A stretch of 64,000 nt of DNA from Escherichia coli 042 (GTDB lineage: Bacteria; Pseudomonadota; Gammaproteobacteria; Enterobacterales; Enterobacteriaceae): the NCBI RefSeq assembly GCF_000027125.1, contig NC_017626.1. The stretch is one strand, 5' to 3'. Every line of letters starts with the position of its first letter. Position 1 is the stretch's first letter. Positions 19,486-21,845 of this stretch are shown piece by piece. Below the pieces are notes generated by a model, which saw only the letters and a list, made by a program, of their open reading frames with translations, was not told the origin of the DNA and did no database searches. The position numbers and the translations under genes were made by a program.

Positions 19486-19950
19486 ATGGAAAAGAAATTA
19501 CCCCGCATTAAAGCGCTGCTAACCCCCGGCGAAGTGGCAAAACGCAGCGGTGTGGCGGTATCGGCGCTGCATTTCTATGAAAGCAAAGGGTTGATTACCA
19601 GTGTCCGTAATAGCGGCAATCAGCGCCGATATAAACGTGATGTGTTGCGATATGTCGCAATCATCAAAATTGCTCAGCGTATTGGCATTCCGCTGGCGAC
19701 CATTCGTGAAGCATTTGGCGTGTTGCCCGAAGGGCATACATTAAGTGCGAAAGAGTGGAAACAGCTTTCGTCCCAATGGCGAGAAGAGTTGGATCGGCGC
19801 ATTCATACCTTAGTGGCGCTGCGTGACGAACTGGACGGATGTATTGGTTGTGGCTGCCTTTCGCGCAGTGATTGCCCATTGCGTAACCCGGGCGACCGTT
19901 TAGGAGAAGAAGGCACAGGCGCACGCTTGCTGGAAGATGAACAAAACTAA
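19486..19950 (+). CDS. soxR: MerR-family redox-sensing regulator SoxR, [2Fe-2S] (154 aa)
   Basis: Translation [49 protein letters not shown]...; C-terminal [14 protein letters not shown] cluster. Confidence 0.95.
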
Positions 19951-20083
19951 AGCGCCACAAGGGCGCTTTAGTTTGTTTTCCGGTCTTTGTCTTTCTCTCT
20001 ATCCCGCTGGTACACAGGAGGGTTTCCCCCGACGTCAACACACCTCATTCGAGCACGTGGTGGAGGTTCCGGTTGGTGTTGAT
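19944..20083 (-). ncRNA. ryjA: Putative small RNA RyjA; position inferred from K-12 synteny, not from a diagnostic sequence
   Basis: The soxR-ghxP spacer (546 bp) matches K-12, where ryjA abuts the soxR 3' end on the opposite strand; strand and ends are from memory. Confidence 0.3.
19949..19980. terminator. Rho-independent terminator at the soxR 3' end, probably bidirectional
   Basis: Hairpin aaagcgcc-acaa-gggcgcttt followed by a T-rich run. Confidence 0.65.
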
Positions 20084-20495
20084 GCTTTAATTGTATGTCA
20101 CCGGCGTTTCTTCGCCAGTGTAAAAGTACACTTTTTAGCCGCAATATTTTTGTCATCTCAGACGATTTTTTATCGCAATCCTGAACGGTATGCGGCTCGA
20201 TAACGCTGCAATCTTGCGCATCGACGATAACGTTTGCGCATCAATTGCCTGGTTTTTCATCGTCAAGACAATAAAAGAGAAAAAAGCAGCAAACTTCGGT
20301 TGAAAAAGCCGCTATGATCGCCGGATAATCGTTTGCTTTTTTTACCACCCGTTTTGTATGCGCGGAGCTAAACGTTTGCTTTTTTGCGACGCACCAATTT
20401 GTCGCAAACCTGGAGCAGGAAGATAACGTTTCGCTGGCAGGGGATTGTCCGCCACGCATCTTGACGAAAATTAAACTCTCAGGGGATGTTTTCTT

Positions 20496-21845
20496 ATGTC
20501 TACGCCATCAGCGCGTACCGGCGGTTCACTCGACGCCTGGTTTAAAATTTCACAACGTGGAAGCACTGTCCGTCAGGAAGTGGTTGCCGGGTTAACAACG
20601 TTTCTGGCGATGGTCTACTCGGTTATCGTCGTTCCAGGCATGTTGGGTAAAGCGGGCTTCCCGCCTGCGGCAGTTTTCGTTGCGACCTGTCTGGTTGCCG
20701 GACTCGGTTCTATCGTGATGGGTCTGTGGGCTAATCTGCCGTTGGCGATTGGTTGCGCCATCTCCCTGACGGCGTTTACCGCATTCAGTCTGGTGCTGGG
20801 GCAACATATTAGCGTACCTGTCGCGCTGGGTGCCGTGTTCCTGATGGGTGTGCTGTTTACGATAATTTCTGCCACGGGTATTCGTAGCTGGATTTTGCGC
20901 AACTTGCCGCACGGTGTGGCGCACGGCACGGGGATCGGTATCGGTCTGTTCCTGCTGCTGATTGCTGCGAATGGTGTCGGTCTGGTGATTAAAAACCCGC
21001 TTGATGGTCTGCCCGTTGCGCTGGGTGATTTCGCGACCTTCCCGGTGATTATGTCACTGGTAGGTCTGGCGGTGATCATCGGCCTGGAAAAACTGAAAGT
21101 CCCTGGTGGCATTCTGCTGACCATTATCGGTATCTCAATTGTCGGTTTGATCTTCGATCCTAACGTCCATTTCTCCGGCGTTTTCGCCATGCCTTCATTG
21201 AGCGATGAAAACGGCAATTCACTGATTGGCAGCCTGGACATTATGGGCGCGCTGAATCCTGTAGTCCTGCCAAGCGTTCTGGCGCTGGTGATGACGGCAG
21301 TATTTGATGCCACCGGAACTATCCGCGCCGTCGCCGGTCAGGCGAACCTGCTGGATAAAGACGGGCAGATCATCGACGGCGGTAAAGCACTGACCACTGA
21401 CTCCATGAGCAGCGTTTTCTCTGGCCTGGTGGGTGCAGCTCCGGCAGCGGTATACATCGAGTCTGCGGCGGGTACGGCGGCGGGCGGTAAAACCGGGTTG
21501 ACGGCTATCACCGTTGGCGTGCTGTTCCTGCTGATTCTGTTCCTCTCTCCGCTCTCTTACCTCGTTCCGGGGTATGCAACGGCTCCGGCGCTGATGTACG
21601 TTGGCCTGCTGATGCTGAGTAACGTGGCGAAAATCGACTTTGCTGATTTTGTTGATGCGATGGCGGGTCTGGTTACGGCGGTATTCATCGTGCTGACCTG
21701 TAACATCGTAACAGGCATCATGATCGGCTTCGCGACTCTGGTGATTGGTCGTCTGGTTTCCGGCGAATGGCGCAAGTTGAACATCGGTACGGTCGTTATC
21801 GCCGTGGCGCTGGTGACCTTCTATGCGGGTGGCTGGGCTATCTAA
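20496..21845 (+). CDS. ghxP: Guanine/hypoxanthine permease GhxP (NCS2 family, 449 aa)
   Basis: Translation [50 protein letters not shown]...; polytopic membrane protein. Confidence 0.9.

What the first reader, a model, noticed from the sequence alone, without database searches (positions are those of the whole stretch)
20220..20440. Four direct copies of an AACGTTTGC-type motif in the ghxP upstream region
Seen in sequence: ataACGTTTGCgca (about 20226), ataatCGTTTGCtttt (about 20324), ctaAACGTTTGCtttt (about 20368) and gatAACGTTTCGC (about 20422), all within 280 bp upstream of the guanine/hypoxanthine permease gene. The motif matches the right half of the PurR operator (ACGCAAACGTTTGCGT), so these are probably multiple PurR or related purine-regulator sites. 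Four spaced copies is unusual for a PurR target and suggests cooperative or graded repression.
Basis: partly seen in the sequence, partly recalled or inferred. Interest (0 to 1): 0.3.

Follow-up and report, generated by a model that had tools for sequence, protein, structure and literature searches.

The report
Three PurR operators plus folded ghxP leader
The four repeated motifs upstream of the E. coli guanine/hypoxanthine permease gene are three conserved binding sites for the purine repressor PurR plus one sequence that instead pairs with one of those sites in a conserved, previously undescribed fold of the mRNA leader.

Summary
All four copies lie in the soxR/sraL-ghxP spacer, 60-272 bp upstream of the ghxP ATG at 20496.

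PurR control of ghxP is already known from ChIP-chip, adenine repression and the PurR-1 iModulon. Copy 1 is exactly the published ChIP-chip motif, and copies 3 and 4 have been predicted computationally.

What is new here:
- **Three real PurR boxes.** Copies 1 (20224-20239), 2 (20323-20338) and 3 (20366-20381) are PurR boxes in about 78-80 of 80 Enterobacteriaceae.
- **Copy 2** overlaps the -10 hexamer and predicted start of an invariant TTGAAA-N18-GATAAT promoter. I did not find it reported.
- **Copy 1** sits exactly 99 bp upstream of copy 2 in 78 of 79 loci, across DNA with 10-10.5 bp AA/TT phasing.
- **Copy 3** lies about +31 to +46, where it could act as a roadblock.
- **Copy 4** (20420-20435) is not a conserved PurR box (median -3.3 bits). 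Because AAACGTTT is palindromic, it is the 3' strand of an RNA helix that pairs with the transcript of copy 3.
- **A folded leader.** That helix belongs to a roughly 105-nt four-helix leader fold (20356-20461) with strong covariation and no Rfam match.

The cooperative-repression idea is plausible but untested. The function of the leader is unknown. Overall: known regulon membership, a new architecture, moderate interest.

The parts
20214..20221 (+). TTGCGCAT block, repeated 20 bp downstream at 20234-20241 inside and just past copy 1. In most genera it reads GATTGCGC, which equals a PurR right half-site without a left half. Function unexplained.
   Evidence: Per-column information is as high as inside the PurR box across 77 distinct sequences; the ungapped alignment is.
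20224..20239 (+). Copy 1: upstream PurR operator ACGATAACGTTTGCGC, about -112 to -97 from the predicted start.
   Evidence: 18.6 bits, p 3.4e-7. Identical to the motif listed for the PurR ChIP-chip peak 'ryjA/yjcD' (PMC3159470). Present exactly 99 bp upstream of copy 2 in 78 of 79 loci.
20300..20305 (+). -35 hexamer TTGAAA of the predicted ghxP promoter.
   Evidence: The only promoter-like hit in the spacer, matching 10 of 12 positions. GTTGAAAA is invariant across genera while the 18-bp spacer varies.
20324..20329 (+). -10 hexamer GATAAT of the predicted ghxP promoter. The start site is predicted near 20335-20337 and is not experimentally confirmed here.
   Evidence: Covariation shows that RNA from 20356 onward is made from the + strand.
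20323..20338 (+). Copy 2: promoter-overlapping PurR operator GGATAATCGTTTGCTT (-13 to +3). It is weak because its left half doubles as the -10 hexamer.
   Evidence: 10.2 bits, p 3.6e-5, rising to 13.4 bits in the 28 of 74 distinct sequences that begin with A. The 13-mer GATAATCGTTTGC is invariant in 78 of 80 Enterobacteriaceae and is also kept in Erwinia.
20366..20381 (+). Copy 3: downstream PurR operator AGCTAAACGTTTGCTT (about +31 to +46). Its transcript also forms the 5' strand of RNA helix P2.
   Evidence: 19.2 bits, p 2e-7, the best hit in the window. Conserved in all 80 loci, with variation only at PWM-tolerated positions. Listed as a predicted site at -130 in PMC4576408. P2 pairing is shown.
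20420..20435 (+). Copy 4: AAGATAACGTTTCGCT. Not a conserved PurR box. Bases 20426-20435 form the 3' strand of RNA helix P2 and pair with 20366-20375.
   Evidence: 7.2 bits, minus strand only. The orthologous 16-mers have a median of -3.3 bits. P2 is 89.8% paired; pair 20368:20433 covaries (C-G 26, U-A 25, U-G 12).
20356..20461 (+). Structured ghxP leader RNA domain with four helices: P1 20356-20361 with 20456-20461; P2 20366-20375 with 20426-20435; P3 hairpin 20385-20390 with 20401-20406; P4 hairpin 20440-20443 with 20452-20455.
   Evidence: 91.7% of cells are paired, against 27-50% when partners are slid. 16 of 26 pairs have compensatory changes, and 0 of 500 shuffles reach the observed values. 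Single-sequence MFE folds recover most of these helices in five of six genera, though P4 often pairs in a shifted register and Salmonella shows P1/P2 only. The covariance model gives one hit in the window at 142.5 bits. There is no Rfam match.
20480..20486 (+). Invariant Shine-Dalgarno region CAGGGGA, outside the folded domain and preceded by an A-rich linker.
   Evidence: Invariant columns in alignment A2.
20496..21845 (+). ghxP coding sequence (guanine/hypoxanthine permease, 449 aa), the regulated gene.
   Evidence: ORF list; annotation of matching E. coli records.

Best explanation
The four copies are not equivalent.

**Three PurR operators.** Copies 1, 2 and 3 are operators for the hypoxanthine/guanine-loaded purine repressor PurR, acting on a single sigma-70 promoter (TTGAAA-N18-GATAAT, start near 20336).
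- Copy 2 covers the -10 hexamer and the start site, so bound PurR would exclude RNA polymerase. It is intrinsically weak because half of it must also serve as the -10 element.
- Copy 3, a strong box about 30-45 bp downstream, would act as a roadblock. PurR is reported to do this at purB and purR.
- Copy 1, a strong box held exactly 99 bp upstream of copy 2 across phased A/T tracts, would act as an auxiliary operator. It could raise local PurR occupancy or act through a phase-dependent bend or loop.

**One RNA partner.** Copy 4 is not a PurR site. The operator core AAACGTTT is its own reverse complement, so copy 4 is the downstream strand of RNA helix P2 and pairs with the transcribed copy 3. 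P2 belongs to a conserved four-helix leader fold (20356-20461) upstream of an unstructured, A-rich ribosome-binding region.

**Shown:**
- the site scores
- deep conservation of the three boxes
- the invariant spacing
- the invariant promoter hexamers
- the RNA covariation

**From the literature:** PurR occupancy of this spacer and PurR- or adenine-dependent repression of ghxP.

**Inferred:** the start site, which individual boxes are occupied, any cooperativity, and what the leader fold does. My guess is post-transcriptional tuning of stability or translation.
For: - **Scores.** A PurR matrix from 27 independent ChIP-chip sites ranks copies 3 and 1 first and second in 64 kb and places copy 2 at p 3.6e-5.
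- **Published sites.** Copy 1 equals the published ChIP-chip motif, and the 630-bp peak spans the whole spacer. ghxP is repressed by adenine through PurR and belongs to the PurR-1 iModulon.
- **Conservation.** In 80 Enterobacteriaceae loci the three boxes are present in 78-80. Mean information is 1.86-1.89 bits per position inside the boxes and 0.8-1.0 in the flanks. Substitutions fall where the matrix tolerates them, such as position 10 T/A and position 7 A/T.
- **Spacing.** The copy 1 to copy 2 distance is 99 bp in 78 of 79 loci, whereas copy 2 to copy 3 ranges over 42-205 bp.
- **Phased tracts.** AA/TT periodicity peaks at 10-10.5 bp between copies 1 and 2.
- **Promoter.** TTGAAA-N18-GATAAT is the only promoter-like site in the spacer, and its hexamers are invariant while the spacer between them varies.
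- **Wider families.** Erwinia keeps copies 2 and 3. Locus L086 keeps copies 1 and 2 at 99 bp.
- **Copy 4.** Orthologous 16-mers score a median of -3.3 bits.
- **Leader fold.** 91.7% of cells are paired, 16 of 26 pairs are compensatory, and 0 of 500 shuffles reach this. G-U pairs make sense only on the + strand. MFE folds in five of six genera recover most of the helices, and Salmonella recovers P1/P2. Insertions in other genera fall only in loops or outside the domain, and those held-out sequences score 76-123 bits with the model.
Against: - No experimental start site was found. Five attempts to find start-site data (four searchable supplement sets, one paper not held) came back empty, so positions relative to +1 are predictions.
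- The ChIP-chip peak cannot resolve which boxes are occupied.
- Copy 2 scores below every published ChIP-chip site in E. coli (10.2 bits against a minimum of 12.1). Its invariance could owe something to promoter or initial-transcript constraints.
- PurR is not known to oligomerise beyond dimers (my knowledge). The 99-bp constraint therefore lacks a demonstrated mechanism, and 99 bp is not an integral number of 10.5-bp turns.
- Conservation of copy 3 is confounded, because it is both operator and RNA helix strand.
- P2 has only two covarying pairs. It competes with a local hairpin (20362-20366 with 20375-20379) that RNAalifold preferred.
- In E. coli itself P2 and P4 each carry a mismatch. MFE z-scores are modest, from +0.1 to -3.4.
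- The covariation counts are not corrected for phylogeny.
Confidence: 0.68

Rival explanations
1. Single-operator model. Only copy 1, the site reported from ChIP-chip, is a functional PurR operator. The other copies are chance half-site matches in an AT-rich spacer.
For: Cho et al. list one motif for this peak. The exact 8-mer is not enriched in the window. Copy 1 has the most symmetric match to the palindrome, 13 of 16.
Against: Copy 3 outscores copy 1 with a matrix that excludes ghxP. Copies 2 and 3 are as conserved as copy 1 across 80 species, while their flanks drift. Erwinia retains copies 2 and 3 but lacks copy 1. Copy 1 lies about 100 bp upstream of the only conserved promoter, a poor position for a sole repressing operator.
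Confidence: 0.06
2. All four copies are PurR sites that together give cooperative or graded repression.
For: All four contain the CGTTT core. Copy 4 was predicted as an additional PurR site by an independent matrix (PMC4576408). In Escherichia and some Citrobacter it reaches 7-9.5 bits.
Against: The copy 4 right half is CGC rather than GCG. Orthologous 16-mers have a median of -3.3 bits and none of 71 reaches 10 bits. What is conserved in copy 4 is exactly the part complementary to copy 3, and one pair in the flank of that core (20368:20433) covaries with it.
Confidence: 0.1
3. Two-operator model. PurR acts only through the strong boxes, copies 1 and 3. Copy 2 is conserved purely as the -10 hexamer, discriminator and initial transcribed sequence of the promoter.
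For: Copy 2 scores below all 28 published sites in E. coli. Six of its 16 bases are the -10 hexamer.
Against: The seven bases after the -10 hexamer, CGTTTGC, are invariant in 78 of 80 Enterobacteriaceae and in Erwinia. They are identical to the right half-site shared by copies 1 and 3, whereas the promoter spacer is free to vary. The left half, (A/G)GATAATC, resembles the published glyA and tsx operator left halves, AGGTAATC and ACGTAATC.
Confidence: 0.2
4. RNA-only model for the downstream copies. Copies 3 and 4 are conserved because of the leader RNA fold, and the resemblance of copy 3 to a PurR box is incidental.
For: Copies 3 and 4 pair in P2, and the MFE folds suggest the right half of copy 3 may also pair with the conserved GCAGC segment, though that extension was not tested for covariation.
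Against: Copy 3 matches the PurR matrix at 19 bits, as well as bona fide operators, including positions not needed for pairing. Variation at helix positions is restricted to PurR-tolerated bases. A helix alone would allow free compensatory change of the core, yet the AAACGTTTGC core is invariant or nearly so (only its third and sixth bases show PurR-tolerated variants).
Confidence: 0.07

Closest known systems
E. coli PurR operators (LacI/GalR-family purine repressor; 16-bp box ACGCAAACGTTTGCGT), including the multi-operator purR gene and the purB roadblock
   Same: Same consensus, same central CpG and same corepressor logic. ghxP is a documented PurR target. Operators downstream of the start that block elongation are reported for purB and purR (PMC3159470).
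   Different: Here there are three boxes around one promoter: one upstream at an invariant 99 bp, one fused to the -10 hexamer, and one in the leader. I found no published description of this architecture or of copy 2. Published tables give one site (copy 1) or two (copies 3 and 4).
lac O1/O2/O3 and gal OE/OI auxiliary-operator systems (LacI, GalR)
   Same: A repressor of the same family, with a primary operator at the promoter and auxiliary operators about 100 bp away. Spacing is phase-constrained and the intervening DNA is bendable.
   Different: LacI loops as a tetramer, and GalR loops with the help of HU. PurR lacks a known tetramerisation or looping mode (my knowledge). Looping at ghxP is inference only.
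Bacillus subtilis pbuG and xpt-pbuX control: PurR repressor plus guanine riboswitch
   Same: A hypoxanthine/guanine permease gene with a protein repressor at the DNA level and a structured leader at the RNA level (comparison from my knowledge).
   Different: B. subtilis PurR is an unrelated protein. The ghxP leader has no match to the purine riboswitch or to any other Rfam family. No ligand, terminator or Shine-Dalgarno-sequestering helix has been identified.
sraL/RyjA small RNA (Rfam RF01408), the neighbouring feature
   Same: It shares the same intergenic spacer in Escherichia, and the ChIP-chip peak is labelled 'ryjA/yjcD'.
   Different: It lies on the opposite strand at 19943-20083. The PurR boxes and leader are conserved in genera where a GST-family gene, not soxR/sraL, lies upstream. 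They therefore belong to ghxP.

Membership tests
PurR operator (E. coli purine repressor box) | A 16-bp imperfect palindrome with a central CpG that matches the PurR matrix at the level of known sites | tested here: met
   Copies 1 and 3 score 18.6 and 19.2 bits, within the 12-25 bit range of the 28 published sites. Copy 2 scores 10.2 bits in E. coli and 13.4 in many genera, at the weak edge of that range.
PurR operator (E. coli purine repressor box) | The same criterion applied to copy 4 | tested here: not met
   7.2 bits, on the minus strand only. Orthologues have a median of -3.3 bits and none of 71 reaches 10 bits.
PurR operator (E. coli purine repressor box) | Conservation of the box, with substitutions confined to positions the repressor tolerates | tested here: met
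   Information is 1.86-1.89 bits inside the boxes and 0.8-1.0 in the flanks. Variants occur at positions 3-5, 7, 10 and 15 only.
PurR operator (E. coli purine repressor box) | In vivo occupancy by PurR and PurR- or purine-dependent repression of the gene | not testable with these tools
   Literature only. The ChIP-chip peak 4,275,855-4,276,485 in the coordinates of that paper (an earlier K-12 sequence version) covers all four copies and is seen only with adenine. PurR-dependent repression is reported. Individual sites are not resolved.
PurR operator (E. coli purine repressor box) | Position overlapping or downstream of the promoter | tested here: inconclusive
   Copy 2 overlaps the -10 hexamer of the only conserved promoter-like site, and copy 3 lies downstream of it. 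No experimental start site could be retrieved.
Auxiliary-operator or looping repression (lac, gal type) | Two or more operators at a fixed, phase-constrained distance with bendable intervening DNA | tested here: met
   99 bp in 78 of 79 loci with no indels, although the intervening sequence diverges. AA/TT periodicity peaks at 10-10.5 bp.
Auxiliary-operator or looping repression (lac, gal type) | A repressor able to bridge two operators, by tetramerisation or an architectural cofactor | not testable with these tools
   PurR is described as a dimer (my knowledge). No evidence either way was obtained here.
Riboswitch or cis-regulatory leader RNA | Conserved secondary structure supported by compensatory changes | tested here: met
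   Four helices; 16 of 26 pairs have double changes; 91.7% paired against 27-50% when slid; 0 of 500 shuffles reach this. Insertions fall only in loops.
Riboswitch or cis-regulatory leader RNA | Membership of a described RNA family | tested here: not met
   cmscan of 19850-20600 against Rfam 15 at E<=5 finds only sraL (and marginal chance matches) within 19923-20113, upstream of the leader.
Riboswitch or cis-regulatory leader RNA | An expression platform: an intrinsic terminator or a helix that sequesters the Shine-Dalgarno sequence | tested here: inconclusive
   No terminator-like site on the + strand. The Shine-Dalgarno region lies outside the fold. The P3 loop CCCCU is complementary to the Shine-Dalgarno AGGGG in most genera but not in E. 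coli.
Riboswitch or cis-regulatory leader RNA | Specific ligand binding | not testable with these tools
   Needs in-line probing or similar.

The most novel reading that the evidence does not exclude
The ghxP leader (20356-20461) could be a new class of enterobacterial cis-regulatory RNA. It might be a purine-related riboswitch or a protein- or sRNA-binding switch. One of its helices is built from the transcribed PurR operator, so a single sequence would be read twice: as DNA by PurR and as RNA by the leader fold. The mutually exclusive local hairpin (20362-20366 with 20375-20379, followed by a conserved U-run) and the long-range helix P2 would be the two states of the switch.
Probability: 0.12. 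Interest if true: 0.8.

Novelty: new variant of a known kind. Interest (0 to 1): 0.45.

Why it matters
PurR control of ghxP is textbook-level, so the finding as written adds little. The architecture is more informative in three ways.

- **A test case for PurR cooperation.** A weak operator fused to the -10 hexamer is flanked by two strong operators, one of them locked at 99 bp across phased DNA in about 80 species. This is a natural system for asking whether a dimeric LacI-family repressor can use auxiliary operators the way LacI and GalR do.
- **RNA-level control of purine salvage.** The conserved four-helix leader is absent from Rfam and from the papers I could search. It suggests an RNA layer of control in enteric purine salvage, where no such element is known.
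- **A caution for motif scans.** One 'PurR site' predicted by matrix scans, copy 4, is better explained as RNA. Palindromic operator cores can masquerade as extra sites when they are really helix partners.

Tried and rejected
- **Experimental start site.** I looked for start-site data in five papers: PMC3415461, PMC4782308 and PMC2760140 held supplements with no match, PMC4161252 had no supplement files held, and PMC4288677 is not held. I also checked the Cho 2011 supplement. Nothing was retrievable, so the start site stays predicted.
- **NtrC or sigma-54 reading.** I considered this for the inverted repeat at 20384-20407 and for TGGCAG at 20435. The repeat arms covary freely, which marks it as an RNA hairpin (P3). 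The GG-N10-GC spacing of a sigma-54 promoter is not met (read from the sequence).
- **Leader peptide.** A short ORF starts at ATG 20358, but the ATG is replaced by AAG, CTG or TTG in many genera and indels break the frame.
- **Intrinsic terminator or attenuator.** None found on the + strand.
- **Second promoter next to copy 1 or copy 3.** No conserved hexamer pair.
- **Same elements at the paralogue ghxQ.** ghxQ starts 35 bp after guaD, has no leader of its own, and the covariance model finds nothing there.
- **Copy 1 serving sraL.** Rejected, because copy 1 is conserved where sraL is absent.
- **Near-copy of copy 2 at 60387-60402.** It sits on the phnC start codon and is probably chance.
- **Literature on a yjcD/ghxP riboswitch, UTR, sRNA or Hfq link.** Nothing relevant. 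One hit (PMC5100583) lists a gene written 'yjcD' next to fabI at about 1.35 Mb, far from the ghxP locus, so it is irrelevant here.
- **UTP-sensitive reiterative transcription at the T-run after copy 2.** The T-run is not conserved outside Escherichia and Citrobacter.

Full report
**Locus**

The window is an Escherichia coli chromosome segment. The tested stretch 19400-21900 matches 5,420 E. coli genomes at 95-99.5% identity, and the spacer is 99% identical to K-12.

By K-12 annotation and the ORF list, the local features are:
- soxR at 19486-19950 (+)
- the small RNA sraL/ryjA at 19943-20083 (-), Rfam RF01408 at 153 bits
- ghxP at 20496-21845 (+)

The finding lies in the 546-bp soxR-ghxP spacer.

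**Observation**

All four copies exist on the + strand. As 16-mers centred on the CpG they are:

| Copy | Coordinates | Sequence |
|---|---|---|
| c1 | 20224-20239 | ACGATAACGTTTGCGC |
| c2 | 20323-20338 | GGATAATCGTTTGCTT |
| c3 | 20366-20381 | AGCTAAACGTTTGCTT |
| c4 | 20420-20435 | AAGATAACGTTTCGCT |

The bare 8-mer ACGTTTGC is not over-represented in the window: 3 found against 3.2 expected. The cluster is unusual, though. Three of the 17 CGTTTGC sites fall within 150 bp, with P about 0.012.

I built a PurR weight matrix from the 27 other sites in Table 1 of Cho et al. 2011 (PMC3159470), leaving the ghxP site out. Results:
- c3 (19.2 bits, p 2e-7) and c1 (18.6 bits, p 3.4e-7) are the two best hits in all 64 kb.
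- The next best hit anywhere is 12.4 bits.
- c2 scores 10.2 bits (p 3.6e-5).
- c4 scores 7.2 bits, and only on the minus strand (p 1.3e-4).

**What was already known**

ghxP (yjcD) is an established PurR target.
- A ChIP-chip peak labelled 'ryjA/yjcD', seen only with adenine, spans the whole spacer. Its listed motif is exactly c1.
- PurR-dependent repression by adenine is cited in PMC3809563.
- ghxP is in the PurR-1 iModulon, and the motif found upstream is again c1 (PMC6892915; PMC8376909).
- A 2015 computational paper lists c3 (-130), and reports c4 (-76) as a 'novel' additional site (PMC4576408).

I found no report of c2, of the overall architecture, or of a leader RNA.

**Comparative evidence for the DNA sites**

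I collected 80 orthologous loci from Enterobacteriaceae, all with GhxP at 90% identity or more.
- c1, c2 and c3 are present as PurR boxes in 78-80 of them.
- Mean information is 1.86-1.89 bits per position inside the boxes and 0.8-1.0 in the flanks.
- The few substitutions fall where the matrix tolerates them. Examples are position 10 T/A in Salmonella c1 and position 7 A/T in c3.
- Ungapped alignment anchored on c2 shows an invariant GTTGAAAA and an invariant GATAATCGTTTGC, separated by a freely varying spacer. This is the TTGAAA-N18-GATAAT promoter, the only promoter-like site the scan finds in the spacer.

With a start predicted near 20336, the copies sit at these positions:

| Copy | Position relative to predicted start |
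|---|---|
| c1 | -112 to -97 |
| c2 | -13 to +3 |
| c3 | +31 to +46 |
| c4 | +85 to +100 |

The best PurR hit upstream of c2 lies exactly 99 bp away in 78 of 79 loci. By contrast, c2 to c3 varies from 42 to 205 bp and c3 to ATG from 114 to 190 bp.

The 83 bp between c1 and c2 diverge in sequence but keep a strong 10-10.5 bp AA/TT periodicity. Its power is about five times the shuffled mean; because the sequences are related, the z-score is inflated.

Outside the family:
- Erwinia keeps c2 and c3 but lacks c1.
- One divergent enterobacterial genome (L086) keeps c1 and c2 at 99 bp but lacks c3.
- c2 is therefore the most widely retained element.

**Copy 4 and the leader RNA**

The orthologous c4 16-mers score a median of -3.3 bits, and none of 71 reaches 10 bits. 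Their ACGTTT core is nevertheless conserved.

AAACGTTT is its own reverse complement, so c3 and c4 form an inverted repeat as well as a direct one. Where c3 reads GCTAAACG, c4 reads CGTTTAGC (Citrobacter). Where c3 reads GTTAAACGT, c4 reads ACGTTTAAC (Kosakonia, Klebsiella and others).

On a sequence-only MAFFT alignment of 71 leaders I tested a four-helix model:

| Helix | 5' strand | 3' strand |
|---|---|---|
| P1 | 20356-20361 | 20456-20461 |
| P2 | 20366-20375 | 20426-20435 |
| P3 | 20385-20390 | 20401-20406 |
| P4 | 20440-20443 | 20452-20455 |

Results:
- 91.7% of cells form standard pairs, against 27-50% when partners are slid by 1-3 columns.
- 16 of 26 pairs show changes on both sides.
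- 149 cells show double changes, against 31 +/- 11 in shuffles. None of 500 shuffles reaches the observed value.
- Compensation is seen in P1 (5 of 6 pairs), P3 (6 of 6) and P4 (3 of 4).
- P2 has two covarying pairs. One is clean: C-G 26, U-A 25, U-G 12.
- The frequent G-U pairs make sense only for the + strand transcript.

P1 variants include GUAUGCG/CGCAUAC, GUCUGCG/CGCAGAC, GUAAGCG/CGCUUAC and UUACGCG/CGCGUAG.

Further support:
- Single-sequence MFE folds recover P1-P3 and a P4-region hairpin (often in a shifted register) in E. coli, Klebsiella, Enterobacter and Kosakonia, and P1 and P2 in Salmonella. The Kluyvera fold recovers P1, P3 and P4 but not P2.
- Large insertions in Buttiauxella and others fall between c2 and P1, in the internal loop between P3 and the P2 3' strand (where at least some can form their own hairpins, by eye), or after P1. 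They never fall inside a helix.
- A covariance model built from the 71 sequences finds one hit in the 64-kb window at 142.5 bits. It scores held-out insertion-bearing leaders at 76-123 bits, Erwinia at 46-53 bits and L086 at 42.9 bits. It finds nothing at the ghxQ locus.
- Rfam 15 has no match to the leader, even at E<=5.

Caveats:
- RNAalifold preferred a local, invariant hairpin (20362-20366 with 20375-20379) over P2. The two are mutually exclusive.
- E. coli itself has one mismatch in P2 and one in P4.
- MFE z-scores are modest.
- The counts are not corrected for phylogeny.

**Mechanism proposed**

PurR loaded with hypoxanthine or guanine would act at three boxes on one promoter.
- At c2 it would exclude RNA polymerase.
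- At c3 it would block elongation, as Cho et al. describe for purB and purR.
- At c1 it would act as an auxiliary operator through a phase-dependent effect.

The left half of c2 must double as the -10 hexamer, which explains its low score. It also explains why strong flanking operators might be needed.

From my own knowledge, PurR is a dimer with no known looping mode, and 99 bp is about 9.4 turns at 10.5 bp per turn.

The leader fold adds a post-transcriptional layer of unknown function. The Shine-Dalgarno region (CAGGGGA, 20480-20486) and an A-rich linker lie outside it.

In most genera the P3 loop carries CCCCU, complementary to the Shine-Dalgarno sequence. In this window and in K-12 it does not, so an anti-Shine-Dalgarno role is weakly supported.

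**Verdict**

Regulon membership was already known.
- The new content is the promoter-fused operator c2, the invariant 99-bp geometry, and the reassignment of c4 to a conserved, undescribed leader RNA fold that reuses the transcribed operator c3.
- This is a new variant of a known kind, of moderate interest.

Noticed in passing
window 19943-20083 (-): The sraL/RyjA small RNA (Rfam RF01408, 153 bits) overlaps the 3' end of soxR. Its terminator hairpin at 19944-19974 is the only terminator-like site in the spacer.
   Followed up: yes
window 20214-20221 and 20234-20241: A direct repeat of TTGCGCAT, 20 bp apart, brackets copy 1 and is as conserved as the PurR box itself. In most genera the upstream unit reads GATTGCGC, a PurR right half-site with no left half. 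No explanation was found.
   Followed up: partly
window 20240-20322: AA/TT dinucleotides between copies 1 and 2 recur every 10-10.5 bp across 77 distinct sequences, even though the sequence itself is poorly conserved. This suggests intrinsically curved DNA upstream of the ghxP promoter.
   Followed up: partly
window 20391-20400 (P3 loop) and 20480-20486 (Shine-Dalgarno): In most genera the P3 hairpin loop contains CCCCU, complementary to the invariant Shine-Dalgarno AGGGG. In this window (GCACCAAT) and in K-12 (GCAGCAAAT) the C-run is interrupted. The Shine-Dalgarno region CAGGGGAUGU also resembles a CsrA-type GGA site (comparison from my knowledge).
   Followed up: partly
window 60387-60402 (+): GGATAATCGTTTGCAT is 15 of 16 identical to copy 2 and scores 10.7 bits with the PurR matrix. 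It lies on the start codon of phnC (minus strand, ATGCAAACGATTATCC) and is most likely chance.
   Followed up: partly
L066, L068, L056, L064 and L067 (Buttiauxella); L078 (record titled Chryseobacterium): Leaders carry 10-60 nt insertions in the internal loop between P3 and the P2 3' strand. Several form their own hairpins, for example CUACUCG...CGAGUAG in L056. This is the usual behaviour of variable regions in structured RNAs.
   Followed up: partly
L017-L030 and others, just upstream of copy 1; L083-L085 positions 442-1230: In many genera a GST-family gene on the same strand ends only about 20-60 bp upstream of copy 1, and I saw no obvious terminator by eye. Copy 1 could therefore also block read-through transcription into ghxP. 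In Erwinia the gene order is soxR-like, GST, ghxP, yjcE.
   Followed up: no
L002 (record titled 'Bacillota bacterium' MAG) and L078 (record titled 'Chryseobacterium sp. 18061'): These contigs carry enterobacterial ghxP loci, with 100% and 93% protein identity to the query. They are probably contamination or mis-binning in the public assemblies.
   Followed up: no
L081 (Pluralibacter gergoviae), L069 and L072 (Mangrovibacter), L086: The architecture has lineage-specific losses. L081 lacks copy 1. Mangrovibacter lacks a recognisable copy 2 core. L086 lacks copy 3 and the canonical leader. L075-L077 have an improved copy 3 (AGGTAAACGTTTGCTT, 22.5 bits) and an altered P2.
   Followed up: partly
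window 6905-6920 and 38020-38035: These are the next-best PurR matrix hits in the window (12.4 and 12.1 bits). Their context was not examined, and hits at this level are expected by chance in 64 kb.
   Followed up: no
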